The notes: generated by a model not told the origin, from the sequence alone. Positions 1,677-18,393 are shown, counted from the first letter of the stretch. The stretch: 25,191 nucleotides of DNA from Bacteroidia bacterium (GCA_026391215.1 JAPLDX010000052.1:1-25191), one strand, 5' to 3'. A program made the numbers and translations.

Positions 1677-2198
1677 CGTTCAATGCTATATTTAAAGAAA
1701 GAAAACTGATCAGGTGGAAGCAGAAATCCTTTAAGAATATTGAGAGATTAGTGTTTCACCTGTTCAATTCCAATTAGCACCAGAACCTTTTTTTGTAGAG
1801 CATTAATAATCAATCTTCTATATAAATTATATTAAAGATTGTTGACGGATTTAATGATAAGATCAAATGCTTTTGAGACTTTATAATTATTCAAGCCCAA
1901 TAAAAAAGAAAAGGAATGGAATAAGATAATTGATTATTGGAAAAGCCGTTGCCCTTGACCAATGATGGTAATCCATTATATCACATACCTAAGAGTCTTG
2001 GCATATATTTTCAGCAATAATTGTTTTGCAGATCCGACTGCAGATCGCCATTTAACCGCTATTTAAAAAGCACTACCGTTTTCGTTTATAGTGACTTTTA
2101 AAATAAGAAAAATAGAATAAATCATTATAAAATTTGAAAATTAGCGTAATAGTCCGTATTTTGTGGCGCGTATTCTACTAAAACTAAAACTAAATCGT

Positions 2199-5100: not shown

Positions 5101-5333
5101 GAGAGGTCTCCCTGTCATATACAGTACCGGCTTCAGCTCTGAGCGGTTTTATTAAAGGATATATTAAAGGCGTTAAAATTGCGCTGATAGGGAAGAATCT
5201 TTATACGCTTACCAACTATACGGGTTATGACCCTGAAGTAGCTACCACAGATGGAACCCAGTATTTCTCATATGACTTTATGGGATATCCCAACTACAGG
5301 TCATACTCTGCATCAATTGAAATTAAATTCTAA
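2199..5333 (+). CDS. susC: SusC/RagA family TonB-dependent outer-membrane transporter
   Basis: Signal peptide from ATG 2199 (MKKLILLIVL...ALFA), N-terminal extension domain, plug motif IESIEVVKGASAAALYGSRAGNGVI, C-terminal YTGYDPE and terminal Phe. The track's GTG 2163 start is probably too far upstream. Confidence 0.95.
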   Translation: MKKLILLIVLFVFTGVSALFAQTRVITGTVTSAVEGEGPIPGVSVVVLGTTVGAYTDINGKYTLNVPQNATTLSFTFIGMKTQEVVIAGQTVIDILMSQDLMNLDEVIVTGVAAGTPKKKMAVSVERIDAEKLKEVIAGSASSALQGKVSGVTVVSSTGEPGSAATILVRGATQITGSQAPLIILDGAIMEGTLGDINVDDIESIEVVKGASAAALYGSRAGNGVIAVTTRRGNLLTEGKTEVIFRNEYGTNKLGNKYNLATHHAYGLATDQDSYSYTKYAGVTYPADYHGTEGGITGSRSMEADMYMDNPYKTLYDHEDQIFAGNDFYTNYISVGSNLGKTNFLVSFENNVQSGLLIETDGYKRNSFRLNVDHKVSPKLSVSASNLYVKSSTQDPGGANYYNGGIFFNVLMSEPNVDFSYPNPDGQPYNFIANVWQDETENPIYNVWKIQDNNVRNRILGTYSAKYNMTSFLNIEGKYAFEYSLSDSQTYNPYDTYARGGSGPVYSLGYLYIGNSALFSRNAQITANFNKKLGDFNTRAKVSYLFEKTSYNSSSSSGSDFALAGVPSFDAISGNISSTSYKNAVIAKNYFGILYIDYKDKYIFDGMVRYDGSSLFGADARWNPYFRVSGAYRLTEDIKIPGIQELKLRAAYGTAGQRPAFADQYEVMSISGGVATKSQLGNKLLKPSLSKELEFGLNIDFLNRFSFELVHSITNTSDQILSVPLAVQFGGWPSQVRNAGSLNSKVWEASLNAQVVRSNDINYNIGLIFDNIKTTITELNVPAFQTGPQGQEANKCFYIREGETFGAMYGYAFVKTLDEMQAQLPTTNLATTWYDDTSIDSYVVNSDGYVIVKGTEGTTSEAAVKKMNADGTLWYGKVGDSNPKFKISMTNNISYKGIGLYALLEWKNGGDVYNKSAQWLTRDDRHGMMDQYGKADYLKKTISYYKNFYDVNNFNQFWVEDGSFLKLREVSLSYTVPASALSGFIKGYIKGVKIALIGKNLYTLTNYTGYDPEVATTDGTQYFSYDFMGYPNYRSYSASIEIKF

Positions 5334-5346
5334 TGATTAATTTAAA

Positions 5347-6846
5347 ATGACTATGAAAACATTTAGATATTTTATCTTACTATCAGCGCTGGTTGCAGTC
5401 CTGGTCTCAGGTTGTGAGAGTCTGGAGGTGAAGAATGAAAATGATCCGGATTTTGCGACTGCTTTTGCCAGACCGTCTGATGTAAAAGGGACCGTAGGCG
5501 GTCTTTTCAATACATGGTTCCAGAAAACACAGGATTATGATGGCCCGGCCCTTATGCTATGGGTAGGTGCTGATGCCGGAACCTGTTCACACGGAAACGC
5601 TGCAATGCGTGATTTCAGCTATGAACCGCGTATTGCATGGGATAACACCTCAGCTTATGGTAATGCCATAAACACTGAATCTTTCTATAAAACCATGTAT
5701 GCTGTCCTGTCACAGGCAAATGAAGTTCTTGGTAAAGTTGTGACAAGTGGCATGGTTATCACTGCCGACGACGGTACTGACGAAACCCCTATGGTTAAGG
5801 CAATGGCTTACCTCATGCAGGGATTGTCAATGGGTTATGTAGGACTGGTCTTTGATAAAGGATTTATTGTTGATGAGACGACAGTTCTCACTTCTGATAT
5901 TTCACTTTCAACCTATTCTGAAATTCTTGCAGCTGCAGTAGCCAGCCTTGATAAGTGTATTGCCGTTTGTTCCGCTAATACCTTTACCCTGCCAGACACA
6001 TGGATACCAGGAATTACTTATACACAGAAAGAGGTAGGTGAGATGGCCAATTCATATGCAGCACGCTTTCTTGCTTATGGTCCGAGGAACAAAGCAGAAA
6101 ACGATGCTGTCGACTGGGCCAGAGTATTAGGATATGCAAATAACGGACTGACATTTGATCTGGCTCCGGTAATGGACGATATCTATTGGTACGACCTATA
6201 TCATACCTATTCCTGTTTTCAGGGATGGGGACAGGTTGATATGCGGGTTGTAAACATGATGGATCCGGAAATGCCGGCTCGCTGGACAGATGCCAACACA
6301 TGGAATGTACTGCCCGCCCGCACAACATCGCATACAGAAGGTGTTGATGATCGCATATTCACTGATTACAAGTACTTATCTGCCTGCGGTTTTAAAGTTG
6401 ACCGTGGCTATTATCATTTTTCATGCTACAGATATGGAAGACATGACACATATCTTTCTACCTGGACCGAACCTTCTCCTATCTTCCGGAAGGCAGAGAA
6501 CGACCTCCTGAAGGCTGAAGCAATGCTTCATGGATCAAACATTGCAGGTGCTGCCGCTATAATAAATGCCGGCACCAGAGTTACCCGCGGTGGTCTTGCT
6601 CCCATTGGAGCAAATGCCTCTGAAGTTGAAGCTGCTATCTTCCATGAAAGAAATGTTGAACTTATGCTGTCAGGGGTGGGTGTTGAATTCTTTACAATGC
6701 GTAAAGCTGATAAACTCCAGCCGGGCACACCTCTGCACCTCCCAATACCTGGGCAGCAGCTCGAAGTCAACATCATGGATTACTATACCTTTGGCCCTGA
6801 TAAAGGCGTCGCAGGTCAGGATTATTCAAATGGAGGCTGGTTTTGA
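5347..6846 (+). CDS. susD: RagB/SusD family surface lipoprotein
   Basis: Directly follows susC; lipobox LVSG-C; SusD-like C-terminal motifs (LLKAEA, ERNVEL, LPIP). Start may be ATG 5353. Confidence 0.88.
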   Translation: MTMKTFRYFILLSALVAVLVSGCESLEVKNENDPDFATAFARPSDVKGTVGGLFNTWFQKTQDYDGPALMLWVGADAGTCSHGNAAMRDFSYEPRIAWDNTSAYGNAINTESFYKTMYAVLSQANEVLGKVVTSGMVITADDGTDETPMVKAMAYLMQGLSMGYVGLVFDKGFIVDETTVLTSDISLSTYSEILAAAVASLDKCIAVCSANTFTLPDTWIPGITYTQKEVGEMANSYAARFLAYGPRNKAENDAVDWARVLGYANNGLTFDLAPVMDDIYWYDLYHTYSCFQGWGQVDMRVVNMMDPEMPARWTDANTWNVLPARTTSHTEGVDDRIFTDYKYLSACGFKVDRGYYHFSCYRYGRHDTYLSTWTEPSPIFRKAENDLLKAEAMLHGSNIAGAAAIINAGTRVTRGGLAPIGANASEVEAAIFHERNVELMLSGVGVEFFTMRKADKLQPGTPLHLPIPGQQLEVNIMDYYTFGPDKGVAGQDYSNGGWF

Positions 6847-7806: not shown

Positions 7807-8091
7807 ACTACCCTTTATACACAAGTATTACAATTAATCTATAGTATTGATTAACAGGAGATTCCTCACTTCGTTCGGAATGACAGAATGTGGAGGAAAC
7901 AATAGGGGAAGAAGCGGCGATTCGCAAAAGAATTTAGAAAAGATGTAATTAATTGGGTGCGAATCGCCGCTTCTTCCCCTCTATTAACAACAAAAATTCT
8001 GTCATTCCGAATGAAGCCGACGAAGGAGGCGTAATGAGGAATCTCCTTCTTACAAACAAAATAAAAAAATAATAGGTGTATAAAGGGTAGT
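7807..8091. mobile_element. 285-bp non-autonomous MITE with 16-bp perfect TIRs and 9-bp target-site duplication
   Basis: TIR-L actaccctttatacac (7807-7822), TIR-R gtgtataaagggtagt (8076-8091). Direct repeat aaatccccc at 7798-7806 and 8092-8100. No transposase; two internal nested inverted-repeat pairs. Confidence 0.88.
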
Positions 8092-8127: not shown

Positions 8128-10890
8128 TTATTTAATCACCTTTTGAAAAGTTCTGTACTTAAGGAAAGCTGCAGTGCAAAGGGATATCATAACTATGATT
8201 GCAACATAAACAAATCCTGGTATCGGCACCGGATCCCCACCCGCATAAGAATGTAGCCCTGACAAATAATAATTTACTCCGAAATATGTCATCAGCACTG
8301 ATGAAAAAGCAAAAAGAGACAATAGATTAAAGGTATAGATGTCTTTTAAACCCGGTATCAGTCGGGAATGCGTGACAAACGCATATACAATTATAGTTAT
8401 CAGCGACCATGTTTCTTTTGGATCCCAGCCCCAGTACCTTCCCCATGACTCATTTGCCCAGACAGCTCCAAGAAATGTTCCGATAGTAAGAAAATATAAA
8501 CCCAGAGTAAGGGTTTTGTAATTTATTACTGTCAGCTCATCAATAGTGTTGGATATTCTCTCACGATTCCTGGTTCCTGAAAGAGAAATAAGGACCAGAC
8601 TGATGATTCCGAGTATTGCTCCCAGGCCAAGAAATCCATAACTACCTGTTATTACCGAAACATGAAGTGTGAGCCAGTAAGACTGCAGAACCGGTACAAG
8701 ACTTGTTATCTCGGGATCCATGAAACTGAGATGAGCCACAAGAAGAGTCAGACCTGCCAGAACTGCGGTCGCGGAAAGAGTAAAAGCCGATTTCCGGCTG
8801 AAAATGAATCCTGCCAGGATCGTCACCCATGAAATGAATATCATTGACTCATAACCGTTACTCATGGGTGAATGACCAGAAATGTACCATCTCAGTCCAA
8901 GTCCAAAGGTGTGAAAGAGAAATCCAGTGAAAAGAAGCCAGCTTAAGATCTTAACGATAAGCAAAATCCCTTTTCTCCCTCTTATAACTGTAATAATCAG
9001 GATTATAAGCATGATCAATCCTGTCGTAGCATAAAAAGGGAAGAGTTTTTCAAATATGCCAATCTTATAATATAGCATCTCAGCTTTAATCTTAAATCCT
9101 GAAGGAAGAGAATACCCTGCAAACCTGCTCTGATAAGCGCTTATTGATTCTGCCAGCTGACGGACATTTGCATTGTTATTTGCCTGCAAAGCTTCCGAAA
9201 GCAATGGGAAAACACTATTAAGGTAAACAGAATCTTCACTGCTGACAGCCGTCTTTAAAGCCTCTTCAGGCAAACCCCAGTTTTGTGTTCCATCCCTGAG
9301 AGGAAACATTTTCAGAAAATCTCCCCGGTATATCATATAAACGATGTTCACCCTTTCATCCACCTTCATTATTTCCTTATCCTTCTTATTTCTTTCTCCC
9401 GGTGATTTTAAATAAGCTCCATTTACCTCTTCGGATAATATGTAAACACCTCTCCCTCTCATATCAACCAGGTCGGAAAAAGAAGCCATGTTTCCCCTGA
9501 TACCCAGACTTTTCTGCAGCTCAGTGTTTGATACCCGGATCAACGGAAAGTCCATCCAGTTATCAAAATCAAGAAAGAGCCCCAGAAAAACCTGCATCGA
9601 TGTATATCCCTCAAATTTATTTTCCCGGGTGACTTTGCGAAGTATATCGTTGCTTAATGCAAATAAAGGTTTTGTTCTTCCTTTCTGATCCTGGATAAGA
9701 ACTTTCCCGAATTCTTCAGAGCTTTCCTTACCAGGTACGAATTCCTGACCATAGGATGAAGAAAAGCCTGAAACAATCAGCAGAAAGATAACTGCCGTTA
9801 CACCTTTTCGCAACGGAGAATTCCATGAAGATGATTTAATATTCCTGAATGATGAGGTTTTTATTAAAAGCGAAAGAATAATAAAAAGGAACAATAATGC
9901 ATAACCGGTATAAGTTACGATCATTCCAGCCATATCATGATTGACTGAAAGGATAGTCCCTTTTTCGTCCTGATCGTATGATGACTGGTAGAACCTGAAT
10001 CCTCTGTACTTAAGGATATTATTCATGAAAATTAAAAATGGTTTCTCATCATTTCCTGTTTTATCAATTACTGTGACATCACTCTTATAACCTGAAGGAC
10101 TTGTTGAGCCGGGATAGTGTTCAAGGATAAAATCATTTAGCTTCAGGCTGAATGGAAGTTCTGTTATTTTTGATCCATAGGCTATCTTAAATTCGAGATT
10201 ACCCATCATGCAGGAGGCTGTTGAAATATTTTCTGACTGACGATCCCACAGATAAACTGTTTTCTGATCTTTTCCTGAGGTAAGATTAAAAACAAAGGCA
10301 TTTTGTCCTGTCTCCTGCTGATCAGGATCAACAGATACCGGCTCTCCGTCAGGATCATCTGTAACAGCTTCAACAGCATTGGGTATTATCTGCGATAAGC
10401 TAAGGATATAATCCCTGGTCCCGGAATTGATCTTCCTTCTGTATTTTTGAGATGACAGGGATGCAGTGTTATACAACCTGGACTCTTCTGCAATGGTTTC
10501 TCCACTCTCATTGATCACAGAGTAATTTATATATTTTTCATCCGAAAAACATATATTTTTGGCCTCTCCCTCCCTGATATGAATTGTCCCCTCCCATCCT
10601 GAATATCTTGTAATTCCTGCTCCTATGATCATCATGATAAATGAAAGATGAAAAAGGGCAACAGGTAGTTTTTCTTTTCTGAACAGCTTAAAAATTATCA
10701 GCCGGCCAATAAGATTGACAGCAAGAAGCACAAGGATCAGCTCAAACCACCTGGTATTATAGACCAGGCCGTATGAGGCTGAAGAACCAAAATCGTTCCC
10801 AATGAATGTTGCAATTGCCATTGCAGCTGCAAAGACACAAAACAGTATACCCATGAAAACGGGTGAAAAAAGGAACCTGGCAATCTTCAT
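8128..10890 (-). CDS. ccsBA: Fused cytochrome c biogenesis protein CcsBA (System II; ResB + CcsA)
   Basis: N-terminal ResB-like region (FHLSF, FYQSSYD); C-terminal WWD domain WANESWGRYWGWDPKETW; His motifs LHVS and GLHSYA. Confidence 0.95.
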   Translation of the reverse strand: MKIARFLFSPVFMGILFCVFAAAMAIATFIGNDFGSSASYGLVYNTRWFELILVLLAVNLIGRLIIFKLFRKEKLPVALFHLSFIMMIIGAGITRYSGWEGTIHIREGEAKNICFSDEKYINYSVINESGETIAEESRLYNTASLSSQKYRRKINSGTRDYILSLSQIIPNAVEAVTDDPDGEPVSVDPDQQETGQNAFVFNLTSGKDQKTVYLWDRQSENISTASCMMGNLEFKIAYGSKITELPFSLKLNDFILEHYPGSTSPSGYKSDVTVIDKTGNDEKPFLIFMNNILKYRGFRFYQSSYDQDEKGTILSVNHDMAGMIVTYTGYALLFLFIILSLLIKTSSFRNIKSSSWNSPLRKGVTAVIFLLIVSGFSSSYGQEFVPGKESSEEFGKVLIQDQKGRTKPLFALSNDILRKVTRENKFEGYTSMQVFLGLFLDFDNWMDFPLIRVSNTELQKSLGIRGNMASFSDLVDMRGRGVYILSEEVNGAYLKSPGERNKKDKEIMKVDERVNIVYMIYRGDFLKMFPLRDGTQNWGLPEEALKTAVSSEDSVYLNSVFPLLSEALQANNNANVRQLAESISAYQSRFAGYSLPSGFKIKAEMLYYKIGIFEKLFPFYATTGLIMLIILIITVIRGRKGILLIVKILSWLLFTGFLFHTFGLGLRWYISGHSPMSNGYESMIFISWVTILAGFIFSRKSAFTLSATAVLAGLTLLVAHLSFMDPEITSLVPVLQSYWLTLHVSVITGSYGFLGLGAILGIISLVLISLSGTRNRERISNTIDELTVINYKTLTLGLYFLTIGTFLGAVWANESWGRYWGWDPKETWSLITIIVYAFVTHSRLIPGLKDIYTFNLLSLFAFSSVLMTYFGVNYYLSGLHSYAGGDPVPIPGFVYVAIIVMISLCTAAFLKYRTFQKVIK

Positions 10891-10909
10891 TGTACAAATA
10901 GTTTAATGG

Positions 10910-11527
10910 TCATTGTTCCTCTGACTCCTGATACCCGGAGATTAACCCTCTGAAAAGAGATCCTGGTTTTGGCCCGATGGTGCAGCAATAAACATGAATA
11001 ATCAAAAACACAGAGACCAAGAATCCAAGTATTATATGCAGTATATCTGTAAAAATGAATAATCCTGTCCCGAATACTATAATAACTTTCAGATCCTGGA
11101 ACAACATAATGATACCGGATAGAATAAGCAGTGGCATTATGATATACATGATGAGATTATAAGACACTTTCTCCAGAGGATTGAATTTATTATCCATTGT
11201 GACAGGGAAGGGCTGCTTTTCTTTCCTGAACATCCCATATAAGAAATATTTTAATTGTTTACCGGTACCTGAAAAGAGATTCTTTTTACTAATCCTGTAG
11301 TATTTGCTATTCCCGGTAACAATATTACCTGCAACAAAAGCTATATAGCTGATTGTAAGTATTATCGCTGCAACATCATGTAACCTTGCAGATCCGGCAA
11401 ATCCGGCGGTCAGCAGTGGATGATCAGCATCTGCAAATTGCATGGCTGCTCCTGTGATAATAAGGATCATGATCAATATCGCATTAACAAAATGCCACAG
11501 CCTGATCCATAGAGGATATAGATACAT
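10910..11527 (-). CDS. Diheme cytochrome b membrane subunit (HydC/FdnI-like family; CbcB-like)
   Basis: Four hydrophobic segments with four candidate heme-ligand His (RLWH, RLHD, ILHI, IIHVY); KFNPLEK loop motif; 205 aa. Confidence 0.88.
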   Translation of the reverse strand: MYLYPLWIRLWHFVNAILIMILIITGAAMQFADADHPLLTAGFAGSARLHDVAAIILTISYIAFVAGNIVTGNSKYYRISKKNLFSGTGKQLKYFLYGMFRKEKQPFPVTMDNKFNPLEKVSYNLIMYIIMPLLILSGIIMLFQDLKVIIVFGTGLFIFTDILHIILGFLVSVFLIIHVYCCTIGPKPGSLFRGLISGYQESEEQ

Positions 11528-11543
11528 CTCCTTTGTTTGTAAA

Positions 11544-12518
11544 TTATTTTCTGATAACCCTGAATAAGATATGTACGCCGATTATAGTCATTATGCCGGC
11601 AAAGAATATCAGAATTATATTATCCAGATATTTATTCCTGTTTGCCCCTATAATGTTCAGTCCATTTATAATAACGGTATTATCAAATTTCCGGTTGCCC
11701 TTATCCGTGGGTTTTATTGTCAGCAATGAAGTCATTGTGTCTGCATTCCCTGTATGGCATTTCCTGCAATCCCTTACCGCTGCCTCCTCAGGCATCACAT
11801 AATGGGGAACCAATATGTTTTCATTTACCTTCGTATGGCACTCGATGCATCTGACACTTTCGAAATGTATAGACTGATGCGGGAGCCATTTATGCGCCTT
11901 GCTGAGTTTTATTTTTCCACGATCCGAAAATTGCTTAAACCGGTCATAATCAGCATGACAACCGAGACAAATTGAATTATCGTACAGGACAGTTTCTTTC
12001 ATGTCTTTGCTGTTTCTGAAGCTAAGCCTGTAACTATGCGGATCGTGGCACTCCCAGCAGTTAAATCCCTGCTCCTCAAGCCTGAAATGCACACTTTTCC
12101 GGAATTCCCTGTCAATTTCTTCGAATTTAAAAACTGCAGAGGCTGCATCACCGCCATGACAATCGAGACAATTGAAGTGCGGCTCTTTTTTCAGCTCTTC
12201 AGGATGCGGGAAGCTTTGAAATTGAGATGAATGGCAATCGGTACAGCTGAAGCCCTTGTGGTTCGATGCATAAAACTTATCCCTGCTCAGTATATCTCCG
12301 GGATGCATTGCAGCTTTCACCTGTTTGCCGGAAGTCTCATTCATATATTCATATTTCTTCTCAGCATGGCATTTGAAACAAAGCTCATTATCTTCCTTAT
12401 ATGGAGAAACAAATAAAATGGTGTCCTGTAAAAAAGCTTCATTCTTTTCAAATGCGTACGAAGCAGAAGGGAAAAAATTTAAAATCAGCAACGGCAAGCT
12501 GAAGCTTAAATATCTCAT
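11544..12518 (-). CDS. Periplasmic heptaheme cytochrome c with C-terminal membrane anchor (CbcA-like)
   Basis: Signal peptide; seven CxxCH motifs (CFKCH, CTDCH, CLDCH, CWECH, CLGCH, CIECH, CRKCH); many additional His; C-terminal TM helix containing His (IIGVHILFR). Confidence 0.92.
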   Translation of the reverse strand: MRYLSFSLPLLILNFFPSASYAFEKNEAFLQDTILFVSPYKEDNELCFKCHAEKKYEYMNETSGKQVKAAMHPGDILSRDKFYASNHKGFSCTDCHSSQFQSFPHPEELKKEPHFNCLDCHGGDAASAVFKFEEIDREFRKSVHFRLEEQGFNCWECHDPHSYRLSFRNSKDMKETVLYDNSICLGCHADYDRFKQFSDRGKIKLSKAHKWLPHQSIHFESVRCIECHTKVNENILVPHYVMPEEAAVRDCRKCHTGNADTMTSLLTIKPTDKGNRKFDNTVIINGLNIIGANRNKYLDNIILIFFAGIMTIIGVHILFRVIRK

Positions 12519-12520
12519 AG

Positions 12521-14299
12521 TCAGAATTTATAAGAATTATCCTCTATCAATTTATCTGCGATCCTCCTTCTGGAGTCTTTTACATTTATTCCCCTGATCT
12601 TTGTAAGGTCATCAACAGCCTTTATCAGCTCAGGAGACTTTTCTTCAGATGCAAAAGAATAAACTGCATCATATGCCGATTTCCTGATAATCTCTGCGGT
12701 ATCATATATATTCACGTCAAGAATATCTTTAAATACCGGGGTATTGCCTTTGATAGTATCCAGCTTTTCTACCCTGAGTGAAAGAGATTCTGAGACATAG
12801 GTTTCCATCATCATGTCGGCAATATTGTTCAGTATTTCCTGCTCATTGATAAGCTTTTTATCAAATTGTTTTACAGCGCCATGGATGCATAACAGGATAA
12901 CCTTTTTGAAATTGTCAATATACCTTGTTTTTTCTGTGAAGTAACTTTCACTCACTATTTCACCGGTCGAAATTTTATCAACTCCGTTAAACAGAGTTTC
13001 AGCCTTTCCGAAAAGGTCGAAATCACCTTTCATTGCCCTTTTCATTGCTGTATCAACAACAAGGAGCCGGTTAATCTCATTTGTTCCTTCGAAAATCCTG
13101 TTTATCCTTGAATCACGGTAACATCTCTCGACATCCATTTCTGCTGAATATCCCATTCCTCCATGGATCTGTACTGCCTCGTCAGCTACAAAATCGAGCA
13201 TTTCCGATCCGAAAACCTTGAGTATTGCAGCTTCTACTGCATAATGACTTATAGCTTCAATTGTTGCGCGGCCCGTATCACCACTATCTGCTTTCAGCTT
13301 GCTGATCAGATCGTCAATATCTTTGCTTACTCTATAAACAGCTGATTCTGAAGCATAAAGTCTTATCACCTGTGAGGCTAGCTTATGCTTTATCGCACCG
13401 AAAGAAGATATCAGAACTCCGAACTGTTTGCGTTCATTGGCATATTTTACTGAGTCGGTAATAGCCTTTTTCGCTGCACCAATGACATTTGCACCAAGTT
13501 TTATCCTGCCCATGTGAAGAATGCTCAATGCTATCCTGAAGCCTTCCCCTCTTTTCCCCAGCAGGTTTTCGACAGGCACTTTCACCTCATTATAATAGAT
13601 CTGTGCAGTTGAAGAGCCTTTAATTCCCATTTTATGTTCATCCGGTCCGATAACTACTCCTGGCAAAGCTGACTCAACAATAAAAGCGCTGAGGACCCTG
13701 TCAATATCTATCTTGGCAAAGACCACCTGGGTGTCAGCGAAACCGGCATTGGTGATCCACATTTTCTGACCATTCAGAATATAATGTTTCCCGTCTTCCG
13801 ACAGTTTTGCATTTGTCTTTCCTGAATTGGCATCGCTGCCGGCTCCCGGTTCTGTGAGACAATAAGAGCCCAGTAATTCCCCTGACGCCAGCTTTGGAAT
13901 ATACCTTTCACGCTGGTCCTTATTGCCGTAATACAGTATCGGCAGGGTACCTATGCCACAGTGTGCCATGAAAGCAACCGAAAAAGAAAATCCTGCTCCG
14001 GTTGTCTCTGCAACAAGCATCTGGGTAACAAATGACTGGCCAAAGCCTCCGAATTCTTCAGGAACAGAAATTCCCATCAGGCCCAGCTCTCCTGCCTTTT
14101 TGAGAATCTGTTTCATCAAAACACGATCGCCTTTTTCGAGATCAGCCATCCTGGGATAAACTTCAGCTTCAAGAAAATCCCGGCAGGTCTGGGCGATCAT
14201 CCGCTGCTCCTCATTGAATTCTTCAGGTATGAAAATATCCTTTGCTTTAATATCACTTACCAGGAATTCACCGCTTTTCAGGACTTTTCTATCTTCCAT
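12521..14299 (-). CDS. Acyl-CoA dehydrogenase (long, about 590-aa FadE/AcdA type)
   Basis: Motifs YCLTEPGAGSD, LNGQKMWITN, KMGIKGSST, QIHGGMGYS, RINRIFEGTNEINR. Confidence 0.96.
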   Translation of the reverse strand: MEDRKVLKSGEFLVSDIKAKDIFIPEEFNEEQRMIAQTCRDFLEAEVYPRMADLEKGDRVLMKQILKKAGELGLMGISVPEEFGGFGQSFVTQMLVAETTGAGFSFSVAFMAHCGIGTLPILYYGNKDQRERYIPKLASGELLGSYCLTEPGAGSDANSGKTNAKLSEDGKHYILNGQKMWITNAGFADTQVVFAKIDIDRVLSAFIVESALPGVVIGPDEHKMGIKGSSTAQIYYNEVKVPVENLLGKRGEGFRIALSILHMGRIKLGANVIGAAKKAITDSVKYANERKQFGVLISSFGAIKHKLASQVIRLYASESAVYRVSKDIDDLISKLKADSGDTGRATIEAISHYAVEAAILKVFGSEMLDFVADEAVQIHGGMGYSAEMDVERCYRDSRINRIFEGTNEINRLLVVDTAMKRAMKGDFDLFGKAETLFNGVDKISTGEIVSESYFTEKTRYIDNFKKVILLCIHGAVKQFDKKLINEQEILNNIADMMMETYVSESLSLRVEKLDTIKGNTPVFKDILDVNIYDTAEIIRKSAYDAVYSFASEEKSPELIKAVDDLTKIRGINVKDSRRRIADKLIEDNSYKF

Positions 14300-14323
14300 T
14301 TTTGTAAGTTTTATGTTATCTGT

Positions 14324-16411
14324 TTATAATCCAAGTGATTGTGCAACAAGCTCTGCAATATCAAGGTTCCTTATATCCTCTTCCCTGTTTTTATATTTCA
14401 GTCCATCGGTAAGCATTGTCATACAGAAAGGACAAGCTGATGCAATTACTGATGCTCCCGTTTTAAGGGCATCTTCGGTCCTTTCAATGAAAATTTCCTT
14501 TTCACCTTTTTCAGCTTCCTTAAACATCTGGGCGCCTCCGGCCCCGCAACATAATGAAAAACTTAAGCTTCTGTCCATCTCAGTAAAATTTCCGGTCAGG
14601 TTTTTTAATATTGAACGTGGTTCATCATAAATATCGTTTGCCCTGCCAAGATAACAAGGATCATGATAGGTTACCGAGACATTTTTCAATGCTGCCGGAT
14701 CAAGCTTCAGCTTGCCATCATCCATGTACCTAGTCAGGAGCTGAAGATAGCTGATAACTTCAAAATTCCCTCCCAGATCCGGATATTCATTCCTGAAAAT
14801 ATTGAAACAGTGCGGACAGACAGTAATTATCCTGCTGACTTCATATTTTTTGAAAACACCTATCACCTGAAAAGCCTGCATCTGATAAAGCAACTCGTTG
14901 CCGGCTCGCCGGGCAGGATCACCGCTGCAAGTCTCTTCCTTTCCAAGAACAGCATAGCTTACATTTAAATGTGACAGGATTTTTACGAAGGATCTGACTA
15001 CCTTTTTATACCTGTCATCGAAAGCTCCTGCACAGCCTATCCATAGGAGATATTCGGGCTTTTTACCTCTTGAAGTGATGTCCGACATTACCGGTATTTC
15101 CAAATCTTTAGCCCAGTTAAGACGGTCCTCGGCAGAATATTGCCATGGGGCTCCGTTGTTTTCAATATTATTAAACATCGCTTTCAGCCCGCCGGGTGCT
15201 GATGCTTCCTCCAGCACAAGATACCTGCGCATGTCAACTATCAGGGAGGGTTGATTTATGTTTATGGGACACTCCCTTGCACATGCATTGCAGGTTGTAC
15301 ATGCCCACAGCTCTTCTTCCGAAATATAATCTCTTAATAATGAGCGATTATCATTGAATTCCCTGCCTCCCGATAGCGATCGGGACCTGACCATCAGTGG
15401 TCCTTTCTCCTTCATCCTTGCCCTCAGGTCCATCATTATTTTCCTTGGAGACAATTTCTTGCCCGTAATATTTGCAGGACATACTGATGTGCATCTGCCG
15501 CACTCGGTGCATGACAATGAATCAAAATAGTTCTTCCAGGTTGAATCTTCCACATCCTTTATTCCAAATCGTTCAGCAGGCACATCAGCAGGAGCAGGAG
15601 CAGGTGCAGCAGGATCTAGCATCAGCTTTACCTCCCTGGTTATATTATCCATGTTGGTAAGCTTGCCAAGAGGCTCAAGCCGTGAAAGGAAAACATTCGG
15701 CACTGACATAAAAACATGGAAATGCTTTGAATAGGGAAGATAGTTGGCAAAGAAGAATATGAGGAGAATATGAGCCCACCACGAAACCTCATAAATGATC
15801 CTTGAACTTTCAGCAGGGACAGGGATCAAAGTGATCAGTATCCTTGCAACAGGATAAATCCCCTCGATGGAACCCCCGGTTGCTTCCTGGTAACCAAGAT
15901 ATCCCATATTCATCGTTATCAGGGAGATCATAAGCAGGAGAATGAGGGTGAGAGCCGCAGCGGCATCGAGATGAGATCTTCTTTTCATTTCAATTCCTTC
16001 GAATCGCCTGATATGAAAAAAGATACGACGTGACAGGAAAACAATTATTGAAACTGCCACCAGCAGGGCAAAAATATCCCCGGAAACCATAATAATGTCA
16101 TGCAGGGGACCAAGGAATTTAAGGGCTTTTTCCGTTCCTGCCAGACCATCAATTACCATTTCAATGCTCCCGATTAAAATGACACAGAATCCCCAGAATA
16201 CAAGTGCATGAAAAAAACCGATGACAGGCCTCCGGAATATCTTTGCCTGCCCGAAAGCCACCCTCATCATTATACCAAATCTCTTTCCGAAATCCCTGAC
16301 AGTGAAAGCAGGCCTGGTAAGCTTGAAGTAGCTAATTATTCTGTTAATTGTATAGAAGAATACTCCGAAAGTAATCAGAAGCGTAACCGCAAAAACAATT
16401 TGCCTTGTCAT
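14324..16411 (-). CDS. Membrane-bound heme b/FeS/CCG oxidoreductase (FadF / DUF224 / EMO-type ETF:quinone oxidoreductase)
   Basis: N-terminal TM domain with His (FFHALVFWGF, WWAH, SKHFH); two 4Fe-4S motifs (CTECGRCTSVCP, CTTCNACARECP); two CCG domains (CSG...CPHC; HDPC...CCG...CPFC); lies between etfA and the acyl-CoA dehydrogenase. Confidence 0.9.
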   Translation of the reverse strand: MTRQIVFAVTLLITFGVFFYTINRIISYFKLTRPAFTVRDFGKRFGIMMRVAFGQAKIFRRPVIGFFHALVFWGFCVILIGSIEMVIDGLAGTEKALKFLGPLHDIIMVSGDIFALLVAVSIIVFLSRRIFFHIRRFEGIEMKRRSHLDAAAALTLILLLMISLITMNMGYLGYQEATGGSIEGIYPVARILITLIPVPAESSRIIYEVSWWAHILLIFFFANYLPYSKHFHVFMSVPNVFLSRLEPLGKLTNMDNITREVKLMLDPAAPAPAPADVPAERFGIKDVEDSTWKNYFDSLSCTECGRCTSVCPANITGKKLSPRKIMMDLRARMKEKGPLMVRSRSLSGGREFNDNRSLLRDYISEEELWACTTCNACARECPININQPSLIVDMRRYLVLEEASAPGGLKAMFNNIENNGAPWQYSAEDRLNWAKDLEIPVMSDITSRGKKPEYLLWIGCAGAFDDRYKKVVRSFVKILSHLNVSYAVLGKEETCSGDPARRAGNELLYQMQAFQVIGVFKKYEVSRIITVCPHCFNIFRNEYPDLGGNFEVISYLQLLTRYMDDGKLKLDPAALKNVSVTYHDPCYLGRANDIYDEPRSILKNLTGNFTEMDRSLSFSLCCGAGGAQMFKEAEKGEKEIFIERTEDALKTGASVIASACPFCMTMLTDGLKYKNREEDIRNLDIAELVAQSLGL
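15368..15385. repeat. 18-bp palindrome tcccgatagcgatcggga in frame within the oxidoreductase CDS
   Basis: Arms tcccgat/atcggga around a 4-nt loop; occupies six whole codons (SRSLSG) of the minus-strand CDS; same arms as 1296-1311. Confidence 0.6.
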
Positions 16412-16443
16412 AATTTACAAATATCCAATAACTTGCAAACTTT

Positions 16444-16538
16444 CTTTGTGATACTTTGTGATTCCTTTGTGTTACTTTGTGGTTAACTTTTTGTTTTACC
16501 ACAAAGGGACACCAAGGTCATCACAAAGGAACACAAAG
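16444..16538. repeat. Intergenic palindromic element: 4x CTTTGTG facing 4x CACAAAG, 10-12 bp spacing
   Basis: ctttgtg at 16444, 16454, 16465, 16475; cacaaag at 16500, 16522, 16532 and caccaag at 16510. Confidence 0.85.
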
Positions 16539-16541
16539 ATT

Positions 16542-17510
16542 TTACTTTTTAAGTTCTTTAACAGCATTAATAAGTTTTGGTAATATCTTCATTGCATCAC
16601 CGACGATACCATACTGGGCTGCTTCAAATATCGGTGCCTCCTTATCGTTGTTGATGGCAACAATATATTTTGAACCGCTAATGCCTGCAAGATGCTGAGT
16701 TGCTCCGGATATACCGACAGCTATATAAAGGTTAGGTGCAATTATCTTACCTGTCTGACCTGTATGCTCTTCGTGAGGCCGCCATCCTTCATCTGAGACA
16801 GGTCTTGAACAGGCCGTCGCTCCGCCAAGGACATTTGCAAGTTCGGTCAGAGGTGCCCAGTTATCAGGTGATTTCATTCCTCTTCCACCCGAGACGACTA
16901 TATCAGCGTCAGTCAGCAATATTTTGTCTGTTTGTTTCAGTACATTCTGGACTTTTGTCCTGGCAAGTGAACTGTCAACATTAACAGTCATCTTTTCAAT
17001 AGTTGAGTTATCAACTGTCTCGATCAATTCGAATGAGTTCTGTGCAAGGGTGAGTATTTTTATTTCGGATTTAATAACGACATGGGCAAAAGCATTTCCG
17101 GAATAGGTTTTTTTATAGACCGTAAATGGATTTGTGTTAAGAGGCAATCTGCTCACACCTGATCCTACACCAGCTCTCAGCTTTACTGATAACCTTGGGG
17201 CAACTGCTTTACCGGTATTATTATTTGAGATTATTATAACTGAAGAGTTTTCTTTCTTTGCTATCTCTGAAATAACACTCGAATAAGCCTGACTATCAAG
17301 GATTTTTAGTAATTCATTTTCGACACTTATTATCTTGCCTGCTCCGTATCTGCCAAGTTTTATCAGTTCTGAGTCCTCAATTTTTCCTATAGAAAGGGCT
17401 GTAACAGAGGTATTTATCATTTTTGCAACCTCAGATGCGTACGAGACAAGCTCAAATGAAAGTTTCTTGAATTTTCCGTCCCAATTTTCGGTATAAACTA
17501 ATACTGACAT
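16542..17510 (-). CDS. etfA: Electron transfer flavoprotein alpha subunit
   Basis: ADIVVSGGRG, GQTGK, LYIAVGISGATQHLAG, VAINND motifs. Confidence 0.96.
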   Translation of the reverse strand: MSVLVYTENWDGKFKKLSFELVSYASEVAKMINTSVTALSIGKIEDSELIKLGRYGAGKIISVENELLKILDSQAYSSVISEIAKKENSSVIIISNNNTGKAVAPRLSVKLRAGVGSGVSRLPLNTNPFTVYKKTYSGNAFAHVVIKSEIKILTLAQNSFELIETVDNSTIEKMTVNVDSSLARTKVQNVLKQTDKILLTDADIVVSGGRGMKSPDNWAPLTELANVLGGATACSRPVSDEGWRPHEEHTGQTGKIIAPNLYIAVGISGATQHLAGISGSKYIVAINNDKEAPIFEAAQYGIVGDAMKILPKLINAVKELKK

Positions 17511-17534
17511 ATCATTATAGTTTTATCTTATGAA

Positions 17535-18284
17535 TCAGATGATTTTTGCCTCATTCTGAAGAAGGTCAATGAGTTGTCCCGGATTTTCCGGATCGATGAA
17601 TTTGCAGGCTGACCGGGGAGCCGGTTTTTCAAAAACCGTTATTTCGGTCAGAGAATCAACTTCAACAGGTTCAATCACTTTCAAAGGTTTCGTCCTTGCC
17701 ATCATAATACCTCTCATAGCTGCAATCCTGGGTTCTTTGGCAATACCTTTCTGCACTATTGCCACGAACGGGGCCGGTACGGAAGTTACTTCCTTACCCC
17801 CGTCAATTTCACGAACGAGAACAGCCTGGCCATTTTCGATCTTTATACCCGAAACTGCCGAAACTGATGGTATCCCAAGGAATTCAGATATCATCCCGCC
17901 GACAAGAGAGCCGTTATAATCACTTGATTCAATGCCACACAAAATAATATCAAAATGCTCTTTCTTTATCACTTCGGCAAGCTGGGCTGATGTATAATAA
18001 GCGTCTGAAGACTCAGAGTTGATCCTTATTGCATCATCAGCTCCGATTGCCAGTGCTTTCCGTATAGTAGGTTCGGATGATGCCGTTCCTACATGTGCCA
18101 CTGTCACGGATTTTATTCCACTGGAAGGGTCATCCTTCAGCTCTAGGGCCCTGGTAAGGGAGAGTTCATCCCATGGATTTATAACCCACTGAATACCGGT
18201 TGTATCAACAGAGGTATTACTTTCATTAAATTTGATCTTTGTCGTTGTGTCAGGCACATTGCTTATACATACCAGAATCTTCAT
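17535..18284 (-). CDS. etfB: Electron transfer flavoprotein beta subunit
   Basis: MKILVCISNVPDT, INPWDE, KALAIGAD, REIDGG, EPR motifs. Confidence 0.96.
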   Translation of the reverse strand: MKILVCISNVPDTTTKIKFNESNTSVDTTGIQWVINPWDELSLTRALELKDDPSSGIKSVTVAHVGTASSEPTIRKALAIGADDAIRINSESSDAYYTSAQLAEVIKKEHFDIILCGIESSDYNGSLVGGMISEFLGIPSVSAVSGIKIENGQAVLVREIDGGKEVTSVPAPFVAIVQKGIAKEPRIAAMRGIMMARTKPLKVIEPVEVDSLTEITVFEKPAPRSACKFIDPENPGQLIDLLQNEAKII

Positions 18285-18362: not shown

Positions 18363-18393
18363 CAAATATAACAATTTATGGTTCAGTTTCAAA
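18363..18393 (-). promoter_or_regulatory. sigmaA promoter of the etfB...ccsBA operon
   Basis: Minus strand: TTTG (18390-18393), 19-nt spacer, TATATTTG (18363-18370), about 80 bp upstream of the etfB ATG. Confidence 0.7.

What the first reader, a model, noticed from the sequence alone, without database searches (positions are those of the whole stretch)
8128..18284. Candidate new respiratory module: ETF, EMO-type oxidoreductase and acyl-CoA dehydrogenase co-operonic with a CbcBA-like multiheme complex and its maturase
Seen: seven co-oriented genes behind one consensus promoter, with gaps of 24, 130 (repeat-filled), 24, 2, 16 and 19 bp. Known: acyl-CoA dehydrogenase passes electrons to EtfAB; FadF/DUF224/EMO-type proteins (characterised in Syntrophus aciditrophicus) link ETF to (methyl)menaquinone; CcsBA matures c-type cytochromes. 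Inference: a complete path from acyl-CoA via ETF, quinone and cytochrome b to a periplasmic heptaheme cytochrome. That would let a presumed fermenter route acyl-CoA electrons to a periplasmic or extracellular acceptor or syntrophic partner, or run in reverse. In syntrophs the EMO loop normally ends in formate dehydrogenase or hydrogenase; here a multiheme cytochrome takes that place. I do not know of this arrangement being described in Bacteroidota.
Basis: partly seen in the sequence, partly recalled or inferred. Interest (0 to 1): 0.88.

Follow-up and report, generated by a model that had tools for sequence, protein, structure and literature searches.

The report
ETF module beside trimmed cytochrome island
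Two already known electron-transport units, one linking acyl-CoA chemistry to menaquinone and one linking menaquinone to a seven-haem periplasmic cytochrome, were pushed into one tight gene row by deletions in a sediment Bacteroidales lineage, so the row is more likely a by-product of gene loss than a new respiratory machine.

Summary
There are seven co-oriented genes with the stated gaps: etfB, etfA, an EtfD/EMO/FadF-type ETF:menaquinone oxidoreductase, a FadE-type acyl-CoA dehydrogenase, a CbcA-like heptahaem cytochrome, a CbcB-like cytochrome b, and fused CcsBA.

- In 69 of 80 related loci, all from uncultured Bacteroidales MAGs, the ETF unit lies upstream of the cytochromes.
- In 64 of the 69, two genes stand between the ACAD gene and the cbcA-like gene: a lipoprotein monohaem cytochrome and a DUF5777 barrel.
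- Most loci also carry a monohaem cytochrome, a lipoprotein multihaem cytochrome and a Crp/Fnr regulator.
- The window's compact row therefore arose by deletions. Contigs from three studies confirm that it is real.
- Outside this genus the two units were not seen adjacent in the 43 genomes checked.
- Three same-genus genomes keep etf-etfD-acad with the whole island gone.
- Other families have the island without ETF.
- Crotonase, a clear 3-hydroxyacyl-CoA dehydrogenase, a clear thiolase, molybdopterin enzymes and NosZ were not found in this genome. It does have fumarate reductase, cytochrome bd and futalosine-pathway genes.

Coupling is probably only through the shared menaquinone pool. The ancestral DUF5777-cytochrome island deserves more attention than the fused operon.

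The parts
18363..18393 (-). Bacteroidetes-type promoter-like site (TTTG, 19 nt, TAtaTTTG) about 80 bp upstream of etfB
   Evidence: the only minus-strand match in the window. Two matches in the whole window against 1.09 expected, so it is weak on its own. The consensus is recalled, not taken from a call. Sequence seen.
17535..18284 (-). etfB, electron transfer flavoprotein beta subunit (249 aa)
   Evidence: PF01012, 108 bits. Single copy in the genome. Bifurcating or not is unresolved: the best PDB matches are non-bifurcating and bifurcating ETFs with nearly equal scores.
16542..17510 (-). etfA, electron transfer flavoprotein alpha subunit (322 aa); no N-terminal ferredoxin domain
   Evidence: PF00766 and PF01012.
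16412..16541 (-). 130-bp intergenic hairpin built from CACAAAG heptads and their complements
   Evidence: Fold of -52.2 kcal/mol, z -7.73. Four double-heptad matches here against 0.02 expected in the window. Ten exact double heptads on 6 contigs of the genome. In run X4 this spacer is replaced by 102 other letters.
14324..16411 (-). EtfD/EMO/FadF-type membrane ETF:menaquinone oxidoreductase (695 aa)
   Evidence: Two CCG domains and 4Fe-4S motifs. Hydrophobic segments in residues 1-174. 394 bits to the solved mycobacterial EtfD, PDB 9ojn_A, over residues 10-341 and 363-693.
12521..14299 (-). Long FadE-type acyl-CoA dehydrogenase (592 aa); the only ACAD found in the genome with this query
   Evidence: NF058590, 719.9 bits (cut-off 600), plus four ACAD Pfam domains. 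tblastn finds only itself.
11544..12518 (-). CbcA-like heptahaem c-type cytochrome (324 aa), periplasmic with a C-terminal membrane helix
   Evidence: 7 CXXCH motifs. All 21 haem-motif residues, 7 further His, and His316 in the helix are identical in 79 of 79 sequences. The features match the published description of CbcA.
10910..11527 (-). CbcB-like dihaem cytochrome b (205 aa)
   Evidence: PF01292. NF011582 'thiosulfate reductase cytochrome B subunit', 153 bits, below the cut-off of 204. His12 and His50 identical in 76 of 76, His164 in 74 of 76, His178 in 72 of 76.
8128..10890 (-). Fused CcsBA (ResB+CcsA) system II cytochrome c synthase (920 aa)
   Evidence: PF05140 and PF01578; TIGR03144 at 198.6 bits over its cut-off. 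Single copy.
7807..8091 (.). Nested palindromic element downstream of ccsBA (three nested inverted repeats of 16-23 nt)
   Evidence: sequence seen. Function unknown.

Best explanation
The row is two separate, individually known electron-transport units that lie side by side by descent in one genus-level clade of uncultured Bacteroidales. DNA runs that hold the window are labelled freshwater sediment or wetland.

Unit 1 is etfB-etfA-etfD(EMO/FadF type)-fadE-type ACAD. It passes electrons between an acyl-CoA/enoyl-CoA couple and the menaquinone pool.

Unit 2 is what is left of a cytochrome island. Here it is cut down to a CbcBA-type complex, a cytochrome b plus a membrane-anchored heptahaem cytochrome, which passes electrons between menaquinol and periplasmic partners. 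The general cytochrome c synthase CcsBA follows it.

Deletions in this lineage removed the following genes:
- the lipoprotein monohaem cytochrome and the DUF5777 barrel that stood between the units;
- the periplasmic monohaem cytochrome;
- the lipoprotein multihaem cytochrome;
- the Crp/Fnr regulator.

As a result cbcA now starts 2 bp after the ACAD stop. It is probably read from the etf promoter (inferred, not shown).

Any electron flow between the two units goes through the common menaquinone pool. That pool is also served by fumarate reductase, cytochrome bd and an Rnf/Nqr-type complex. The link is therefore loose, not a dedicated pathway.
For: Gene identities.

Ancestral layout:
- 80 related loci were examined. 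69 have acad and/or etfD upstream on the same strand. 8 are too short upstream to tell. 3 have at least 8.6 kb upstream without them.
- 75 of 80 carry DUF5777. 73 of 80 carry the small cytochrome, with CXXCH in 73 of 73. 64 carry the monohaem cytochrome, 58 a lipoprotein multihaem cytochrome, 47 the Crp/Fnr gene.
- Five loci (L035, L036, L038, L045, L098) lack the barrel pair.
- The nearest locus with context, L036, has acad, a 2-bp gap, cbcA, cbcB, monohaem c, ccsBA, and the same flanking genes as the window.

Independence of the units:
- Other-family loci hold Crp, multihaem cytochrome, small cytochrome, DUF5777, monohaem c, cbcA, cbcB and ResB/CcsA with no ETF gene nearby.
- Of 5 same-genus genomes without cbcA, 4 keep acad. 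In 3 of these, acad is followed after about 75 bp by ccsBA.
- In 298 other genomes of the order, EtfD was found in 138 and CbcA in 64; 88 have EtfD alone and 14 have CbcA alone.

Other quinone enzymes in the genome: cytochrome bd, fumarate reductase b558 subunit, an Rnf/Nqr D subunit, MqnA/D-type futalosine genes.

The compact form is real.
Against: - Adjacency on the same strand is kept in at least 69 species-level genomes, which could reflect selection and not only inheritance.
- Across the order, CbcA-positive genomes carry EtfD more often (50 of 64) than CbcA-negative ones (88 of 234). The odds ratio is 5.9, but kin are not independent.
- The 2-bp junction leaves no intergenic room for a promoter. 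In this clade the two units are therefore likely co-expressed, which could create real coupling.
- No transcription data could be obtained.
- Loss is inferred, as opposed to insertion of the island, from a quick cbcA tree and a FastTree ACAD tree only.
Confidence: 0.6

Rival explanations
1. One reading: a selected respiratory module. Electrons from acyl-CoA oxidation go ACAD, ETF, EtfD, menaquinol, CbcB, CbcA, and on to a periplasmic, extracellular or syntrophic acceptor.
For: - Genus-wide same-strand neighbourhood.
- Likely co-transcription in this clade: a 2-bp gap, with the only promoter-pattern match upstream of etfB.
- Enriched co-occurrence across the order.
- The genome still has a paralogous outer-membrane set on contig C88: a lipoprotein with three cytochrome c-like domains, a small cytochrome-like ORF and a DUF5777 barrel. 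This could take electrons from CbcA.
- Relatives of that lipoprotein were found in 7 of 12 cbcA-positive and 0 of 4 cbcA-negative genus members present in both searches (small numbers, read by eye).
Against: - The units occur apart in other families and within the genus.
- Spacers of up to 7.3 kb occur between them, and in one locus an opposite-strand ORF lies in the spacer.
- No crotonase was found. There is only a 25-bit 3HCDH match and a 43-bit partial thiolase match, so no beta-oxidation cycle is evident to feed the ACAD. Crotonase was missing in 29 of 31 genus genomes.
- Pushing acyl-CoA electrons (about -10 mV, recalled value) onto menaquinone (-74 mV, abstract seen) is uphill and needs energy input. 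Such a path is therefore costly.
Confidence: 0.18
2. The reverse direction, enoyl-CoA respiration. Electrons enter from periplasmic or external donors through CbcBA into menaquinol, and EtfD, ETF and the ACAD use them to reduce an enoyl-CoA. This is the EMO-dependent reduction proposed for Syntrophus growing on crotonate.
For: - The direction from menaquinol to enoyl-CoA is downhill.
- EMO-dependent enoyl-CoA reduction is described in PMC8805022 (passages read).
- The lack of a beta-oxidation cycle fits a single-step reductase role.
Against: - No source of enoyl-CoA was identified.
- The Syntrophus loop uses a membrane formate dehydrogenase or hydrogenase. No molybdopterin enzyme was found here, and hydrogenases were not searched.
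- The independence of the two units argues against this reading as well.
Confidence: 0.08
3. The cbcAB pair here is a decaying remnant with little or no function. It is kept only because it lies between a useful operon and ccsBA.
For: - Its neighbours in the island and its Crp/Fnr regulator are gone.
- CbcA and CbcB of the window and of L036 are unusually diverged. Mean identity to 51 genus sequences is 0.47-0.48 for CbcA, against 0.60-0.66 for all 50 other loci. For CbcB it is 0.51-0.54, against 0.60-0.71 for 48 of the 50 others (L104 0.53 and L076 0.44 are also low). ACAD identity is ordinary at 0.78-0.79.
- The two groups that lost the barrel pair sit on long stems in the quick cbcA tree, 1.04 and 0.6.
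- Other genus members lost the pair entirely.
Against: - Both frames are intact.
- All seven haem motifs, seven further histidines and the membrane-helix histidine are conserved.
- The compact form persists in several species-level genomes (L035, L036, L045) and in a 93%-alike variant from another study.
Confidence: 0.12

Closest known systems
Mycobacterial EtfD (Rv0338c family; PDB 9ojn), Syntrophus aciditrophicus EMO, Bacillus subtilis FadF
   Same: Full-length similarity to solved EtfD: 394 bits, covering both the membrane part and the soluble FeS/CCG part. Same domain set. The gene lies next to etfBA and an ACAD, the context that led to the ETF:menaquinone role (PMC13083937, passages read; PMC8805022, passages read).
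   Different: - It lacks the long disordered C-terminal region of the mycobacterial protein (695 against 1042 aa).
- The host shows no clear beta-oxidation cycle.
- Haem ligands, cluster types and quinone preference (menaquinone or methylmenaquinone) were not examined.
- In many relatives the gene is split into two ORFs.
Geobacter sulfurreducens CbcBA (GSU0593-0594)
   Same: - A seven-haem periplasmic cytochrome anchored by a C-terminal helix that carries a conserved histidine.
- A small four-helix cytochrome b of the kind annotated as 'thiosulfate reductase-like'.
- cbcA lies before cbcB.

The paper itself names Bacteroidetes homologues (bioRxiv 10.1101/2021.04.15.440034, passages read; our features).
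   Different: - There is no sigma-54 BccR-type regulator. Relatives have a Crp/Fnr gene and this window has none.
- Four histidines are conserved in the b subunit, against the three stated for CbcB.
- No direct alignment with the Geobacter proteins was possible here.
Syntrophus-type reverse redox loop (ACAD, ETF, EMO, methylmenaquinone, membrane formate dehydrogenase or hydrogenase)
   Same: The cytoplasm-facing half (ACAD, ETF, EMO-type protein) is present.
   Different: No molybdopterin oxidoreductase was found in the genome, so a formate dehydrogenase is unlikely. Beta-oxidation partners were not found. Hydrogenases and MenK/MqnK were not searched.
Porin-cytochrome conduits (MtrCAB, Geobacter Pcc) and the fused cytochrome-porin Cyc2 (recalled from memory)
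   Same: In relatives the island combines a barrel (DUF5777, ending in a C-terminal Phe), a lipoprotein monohaem cytochrome, a periplasmic cytochrome and a lipoprotein multihaem cytochrome around CbcBA.
   Different: There is no sequence relation to those families, apart from weak Pfam matches of the relatives' lipoprotein multihaem cytochromes to the MtrC/MtrF domains II/IV model (PF22113; 42.7 bits over its 30-bit cut-off in L021; 24.2 bits in L023). These genes are absent from the window, and only a paralogous set lies on contig C88. The resemblance is an idea, not a test.

Membership tests
EtfD/EMO/FadF ETF:menaquinone oxidoreductase | Membrane domain followed by a ferredoxin-like 4Fe-4S part and two CCG domains, homologous over the full length to a characterised member | tested here: met
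   two CCG stretches, Fer4 families, hydrophobic N-terminus. 9ojn_A aligned over residues 10-341 (97.8 bits) and 363-693 (296.4 bits).
EtfD/EMO/FadF ETF:menaquinone oxidoreductase | Haem b in the membrane domain and ETF-to-quinone activity; for EMO, use of 8-methylmenaquinone | not testable with these tools
   Haem ligands were not mapped. MenK/MqnK was not searched. The activity needs biochemistry.
EtfD/EMO/FadF ETF:menaquinone oxidoreductase | Gene context with etfAB and an acyl-CoA dehydrogenase | tested here: met
   The same order is seen in the related loci.
CbcBA (Geobacter type) | CbcA: seven c-type haems, periplasmic, with a C-terminal membrane helix carrying a histidine for the b haem | tested here: met
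   7 CXXCH; hydrophobic segment at residues 297-323; His316 identical in 79 of 79. Definition taken.
CbcBA (Geobacter type) | CbcB: four-helix dihaem cytochrome b with conserved histidines, annotated as 'thiosulfate reductase-like' | tested here: met
   PF01292; NF011582 at 153 bits (below the 204 cut-off); four conserved His where the paper states three.
CbcBA (Geobacter type) | Direct sequence homology to GSU0593/GSU0594 | not tested
The paper's statement that Bacteroidetes have homologues was read.
CbcBA (Geobacter type) | Divergent sigma-54 regulator BccR next to the operon | tested here: not met
   There is no regulator gene in the window cluster. Relatives carry a Crp/Fnr-type gene instead.
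System II cytochrome c synthase CcsBA | ResB-like and CcsA (Cytochrom_C_asm) parts, here fused | tested here: met
   PF05140, PF01578, and TIGR03144 over its cut-off. A WGWDPKE stretch is visible in the translation; that this is the WWD motif is recalled from memory.
Fatty-acid beta-oxidation pathway | Enoyl-CoA hydratase, 3-hydroxyacyl-CoA dehydrogenase and thiolase alongside the ACAD | tested here: not met
   - ECH_1: no match.
- 3HCDH_N: one 25-bit match.
- Thiolase_N: 42.7-bit and 20.8-bit partial matches.
- ECH_1 was found in only 2 of 31 genus genomes.
- Non-crotonase hydratases were not searched.
Syntrophus-type EMO redox loop | Periplasm-facing membrane formate dehydrogenase or hydrogenase as the quinol partner | tested here: inconclusive
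   PF00384 (molybdopterin): no match in a 98.9% complete genome. Hydrogenase families were not searched.
Electron-bifurcating ETF | A second FAD site in EtfB and closer kinship to bifurcating ETFs | tested here: inconclusive
   the best PDB matches are non-bifurcating (1o94 at 103.6 bits, 1efv at 92.9) and bifurcating (6fah at 90.5, 4kpu at 89.7), with similar scores.

The most novel reading that the evidence does not exclude
The conserved neighbour of the ETF unit in this genus may be an undescribed Bacteroidota route for electrons across the cell envelope. It would consist of CbcBA in the inner membrane, a periplasmic monohaem cytochrome, and a DUF5777 barrel paired with a lipoprotein monohaem cytochrome in the outer membrane. 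A lipoprotein multihaem cytochrome would sit outside, all under a Crp/Fnr regulator.

Its lasting position next to etfBA-etfD-acad in at least 69 species would then reflect a real metabolic link: an acyl-CoA/enoyl-CoA couple balanced against external electron acceptors or donors such as iron minerals, humics or a partner cell.

In the window's clade this route was rewired. CbcBA was fused to the ETF operon and would now serve a second DUF5777-cytochrome set on another contig.
Probability: 0.2. Interest if true: 0.75.

Novelty: new member of a known kind. Interest (0 to 1): 0.4.

Why it matters
How anaerobic Bacteroidota exchange electrons with the outside is largely unknown, yet they are abundant in sediments, wetlands and digesters.

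This case shows that a striking 'new operon' can be the end state of a deletion series. The series seen here runs from a full island, to an island without its outer-membrane genes, to cbcAB only, to nothing but ccsBA.

The deletion series points to the better target: the DUF5777-cytochrome-CbcBA island found in hundreds of genomes (553 confirmed relatives of the cbcA-like gene). No paper containing the word DUF5777 was found.

It also raises an open question. What does a conserved FadE-type ACAD with ETF and EtfD do in a genus where no crotonase-type beta-oxidation enzymes were found?

Tried and rejected
- RNA evidence: the look-up of sequencing runs listed no RNA holder, so co-transcription across 12518/12521 could not be examined.

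- Complex prediction on the relatives' DUF5777 barrel with the small lipoprotein cytochrome and haem gave no verdict (scores 0.26 and 0.29, mark 0.32). It says nothing either way.

- The careful tree search for cbcA did not finish in 300 s. The quick tree was used. The ACAD tree is FastTree only, and L063 was left out of it because my extracted ORF was aberrant (mean identity 0.45).

- MenA (TIGR00751) gave no match. I first suspected that menaquinone synthesis was missing, but two PF02621 and two UbiA matches point to the futalosine route.

- The idea that the cytochrome b is the PhsC subunit of a thiosulfate reductase was dropped, because no molybdopterin enzyme was found in the genome.

- NrfA was ruled out only indirectly. 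Just four ORFs of at least 70 aa have two or more CXXCH motifs, and none of the three others scanned matched a nitrite reductase family. That scan misses cytochromes with CX4CH motifs, as the C88 protein showed. NosZ: no match.

- The idea that the compact junctions are a mis-assembly was rejected.

- The idea that the window's cbcAB came by transfer from another lineage was not supported. The cbcA and ACAD trees both place the window beside the same group of genomes.

- Literature searches:
  - 'DUF5777': 0 papers.
  - Bacteroidales + ETF + ACAD + menaquinone + multiheme: 1 paper, PMC7382037. The passages read mention ETF dehydrogenases and multihaem cytochrome expression in uncultured Bacteroidota only in general terms.
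  - CbcBA, Prolixibacter and Labilibaculum terms: 11 papers. Only the CbcBA preprint was read.
  - I found no description of the ETF-CbcBA neighbourhood in these searches.

Full report
**Observation.** The window is a whole 25,191-base contig (C9) of a 3.39-Mb, 135-contig genome rated 98.9% complete. Seven minus-strand ORFs lie at 17535-18284, 16542-17510, 14324-16411, 12521-14299, 11544-12518, 10910-11527 and 8128-10890. The gaps between them are 24, 130, 24, 2, 16 and 19 bp. Pfam and NCBIfam assign them as follows:
- ETF beta.
- ETF alpha.
- A protein with 4Fe-4S motifs and two CCG domains.
- An ACAD that passes the NCBIfam model for Bacillus-type FadE (719.9 bits, cut-off 600).
- A multihaem cytochrome c.
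- A PF01292 cytochrome b.
- A ResB+CcsA fusion.

The cytochrome c has seven CXXCH motifs, a signal-like start and a C-terminal hydrophobic helix. The 695-aa protein has a hydrophobic N-terminal part. The 130-bp gap folds into a long hairpin of CACAAAG heptads. One match to the Bacteroidetes promoter pattern (recalled consensus) lies about 80 bp upstream of etfB, but two matches in the window against 1.09 expected is not significant. Contigs from runs of three studies bridge the acad/cbcA junction, and contigs from two studies bridge the cbcB/ccsBA junction. The compact order is therefore real.

**What the parts are.** The 695-aa protein is a full-length homologue of mycobacterial EtfD, whose structure is solved (9ojn_A, 394 bits over both domains). 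The EtfD paper treats EtfD, Syntrophus EMO, Bacillus FadF and Pseudomonas DgcB as one family of ETF-oxidising membrane proteins (PMC13083937, passages read). The EMO redox loop is described in PMC8805022 (passages read).

The cytochrome pair fits the published description of Geobacter CbcBA: a seven-haem CbcA anchored by a C-terminal helix that supplies a histidine for a b haem, and a four-helix CbcB annotated as thiosulfate-reductase-like (preprint 10.1101/2021.04.15.440034, passages read). Here His316 in that helix is identical in 79 of 79 sequences, as are all haem-motif residues. Four histidines of the b subunit are conserved. The same preprint already names cbcBA homologues in Bacteroidetes. 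I could not align against the Geobacter proteins themselves.

**Comparative genomics inside the genus.** A whole-genome search found the cbcA-like gene in 18 of 24 same-genus genomes and in 4 of 16 genomes from other families of the order. Of 17 same-genus stretches fetched, 15 show acad upstream of cbcA-cbcB on the same strand, with etf and etfD where the contig reaches them. The distance from acad to cbcA is 1.5-2.5 kb. The other two stretches end at a contig edge. That extra DNA encodes a small protein and a DUF5777 'membrane bound beta barrel' protein. Between cbcB and ccsBA lie a monohaem cytochrome c, a divergent multihaem cytochrome of about 400 aa with a lipoprotein-type signal peptide, and a Crp/Fnr regulator. 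Many loci hold NrfC- and NrfD-like genes as well.

A scan of species-representative genomes confirmed 553 relatives and returned the best 80 loci, all uncultured Bacteroidales MAGs, some labelled Rikenellaceae. These overlap with the first set. The tallies are:
- 69 have acad and/or etfD upstream, 8 are too short upstream to tell, and 3 have at least 8.6 kb upstream without them.
- 75 have DUF5777.
- 73 have the small protein, which is a lipoprotein-type monohaem cytochrome with CXXCH in 73 of 73.
- 64 have the monohaem cytochrome, 58 a lipoprotein multihaem cytochrome, 47 the regulator.
- HSP-based spacers between acad and the first island gene run from 5 to 7288 bp, with a median near 300.

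**The window's layout is derived.** Five loci lack the barrel pair. The closest locus with context, L036 (69% CbcA identity), has acad, a 2-bp gap, cbcA, cbcB, monohaem c and ccsBA. Its flanking genes (an EamA transporter, cmk, lytB) are the same as the window's. The window has in addition lost the monohaem gene. No other of the 80 loci has cbcB directly followed by ccsBA, though the 93%-alike contig of run X6 does.

In a quick cbcA tree the window groups with L035, L036 and L045 on a stem of 1.04. L038 and L098 form a second group on a stem of 0.6, and both groups are nested among barrel-bearing genomes. A FastTree ACAD tree places the window, L036 and L045 in the same 13-member group as the neighbours seen in the cbcA tree.

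CbcA and CbcB of the window and L036 are markedly more diverged from the rest of the genus than those of the other genomes, while ACAD divergence is ordinary. Mean CbcA identity is 0.47-0.48 against 0.60-0.66 in all 50 other loci. Mean CbcB identity is 0.51-0.54 against 0.60-0.71 in 48 of the 50 others; L104 (0.53) and L076 (0.44) are also low. Loss of the outer-membrane genes was therefore followed by fast change in CbcA and CbcB.

**The two units are separable.** Of five same-genus genomes without a cbcA match, four keep acad. In three of these the order is etfB-etfA-etfD-acad, about 75 bp, then ccsBA, with the whole island absent. The fourth has no island gene or ccsBA within 5.6 kb downstream.

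In three loci from other families the island stands alone, with no ETF gene in the stretch. It comprises Crp, a multihaem cytochrome, the small cytochrome, DUF5777, monohaem c, cbcA, cbcB and ResB/CcsA.

In an even sample of 298 genomes of the order outside the genus, EtfD was found in 138 and CbcA in 64. Both were found in 50, CbcA alone in 14, and EtfD alone in 88. For 43 of the 50, both places were printed. Read by eye, 41 pairs lie on different contigs and 2 lie 1.27 and 1.44 Mb apart on one contig. Different contigs do not strictly exclude adjacency across a break. The co-occurrence is enriched (odds ratio 5.9), but relatedness inflates such a figure.

**Rest of the genome.** Each of the seven proteins is single-copy. 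The relatives' monohaem cytochrome, lipoprotein multihaem cytochromes and NrfD-like protein have no match in the genome.

Other c-type cytochromes do exist. There are two NapC/NirT-FGE-sulfatase fusions and a 681-aa propeller protein with cytochrome c parts. Contig C88 carries a second outer-membrane-type set: a 334-aa lipoprotein-like protein with three cytochrome c-like domains (one CXXCH and two CX4CH), a 129-aa cytochrome-like ORF, and a strong DUF5777 barrel at 324.8 bits. Relatives of that 334-aa protein occur in 13 of 30 other genus members. CcsBA is therefore a general maturase, and CbcA may still have an outer partner.

Family searches of the genome gave these results:

| Found | Not found |
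|---|---|
| Cytochrome bd | MenA |
| Fumarate reductase b558 subunit | Crotonase |
| One Rnf/Nqr D subunit | Molybdopterin enzymes |
| Two MqnA/D-type and two UbiA-type genes | NosZ |

The 3HCDH and thiolase families gave only marginal matches. Crotonase was found in only 2 of 31 genus genomes. The ACAD therefore does not sit in an evident beta-oxidation cycle.

**Mechanism.**
- Shown: the gene identities, the order and gaps, the deletion series, and the separability of the units.
- Inferred: EtfD exchanges electrons between ETF and menaquinone. CbcBA exchanges electrons between menaquinol and periplasmic cytochromes. In this clade cbcAB are read together with the ETF operon. The two units communicate only through the menaquinone pool, which fumarate reductase, cytochrome bd and other enzymes share.
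- Not settled: the direction of flow, the ACAD substrate, and the partner of CbcA in this genome.

**Verdict.** The interpretation as a new dedicated respiratory module is only partly supported. The parts are new members of known families, in a neighbourhood that is inherited within one genus and compacted by deletion. The more novel lead is the ancestral DUF5777-cytochrome-CbcBA island, which lies outside this window's gene content.

Noticed in passing
L013:5677-11313 and L011:3350-9028 (relatives); also L021, L023, L059: Relatives carry a conserved island around cbcAB. It holds a lipoprotein monohaem cytochrome (CXXCH in 73 of 73), a DUF5777 barrel ending in Phe, a monohaem cytochrome c, a lipoprotein multihaem cytochrome and a Crp/Fnr regulator. 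NrfC/NrfD-like genes are often present too. This is a candidate envelope-spanning electron route. No paper with the word DUF5777 was found.
   Followed up: partly
G000 contig C88, locus L034:301-2590 (minus strand): The window's own genome has a second set elsewhere. It consists of a 334-aa lipoprotein-like protein with three cytochrome c-like domains (one CXXCH, two CX4CH), a 129-aa cytochrome-like ORF and a DUF5777 barrel (324.8 bits). Relatives of the 334-aa protein were found in 13 of 30 other genus genomes.
   Followed up: partly
G000 contigs C132 (L031:1476-2996) and C123 (L032:1-1401): Two proteins fuse an N-terminal NapC/NirT-type tetrahaem cytochrome to an FGE-sulfatase (SUMF1-like) domain. 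One lies beside a methionine sulfoxide reductase gene.
   Followed up: no
window 16412-16541: A strong hairpin made of CACAAAG heptads lies between etfA and etfD. Similar double heptads occur 10 times on 6 contigs of the genome. The etfA-etfD spacer varies from 0 to about 700 bp among relatives, and in run X4 it is replaced by 102 other letters.
   Followed up: partly
window 7807-8091: Three nested inverted repeats (16, 21 and 23 nt arms) form a palindromic element of about 285 bp between ccsBA and the convergent 274-aa ORF.
   Followed up: no
L036:6019-8192; many places listed: The etfD/EMO gene is split into two ORFs in many relatives and other Bacteroidales (about residues 1-440 and 435-695, cut between the ferredoxin-like and CCG parts). 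In the window it is fused.
   Followed up: no
whole genome G000 and genus: A conserved FadE-type ACAD with ETF and EtfD exists in a genus where crotonase-family enzymes were found in only 2 of 31 genomes. The substrate and purpose of this ACAD are unexplained.
   Followed up: partly
window 2163-6846: A SusC-like TonB-dependent receptor (1056 aa) and a weak SusD-like protein (499 aa) lie upstream on the plus strand. This is typical Bacteroidota polysaccharide-uptake context and is unrelated to the finding.
   Followed up: no
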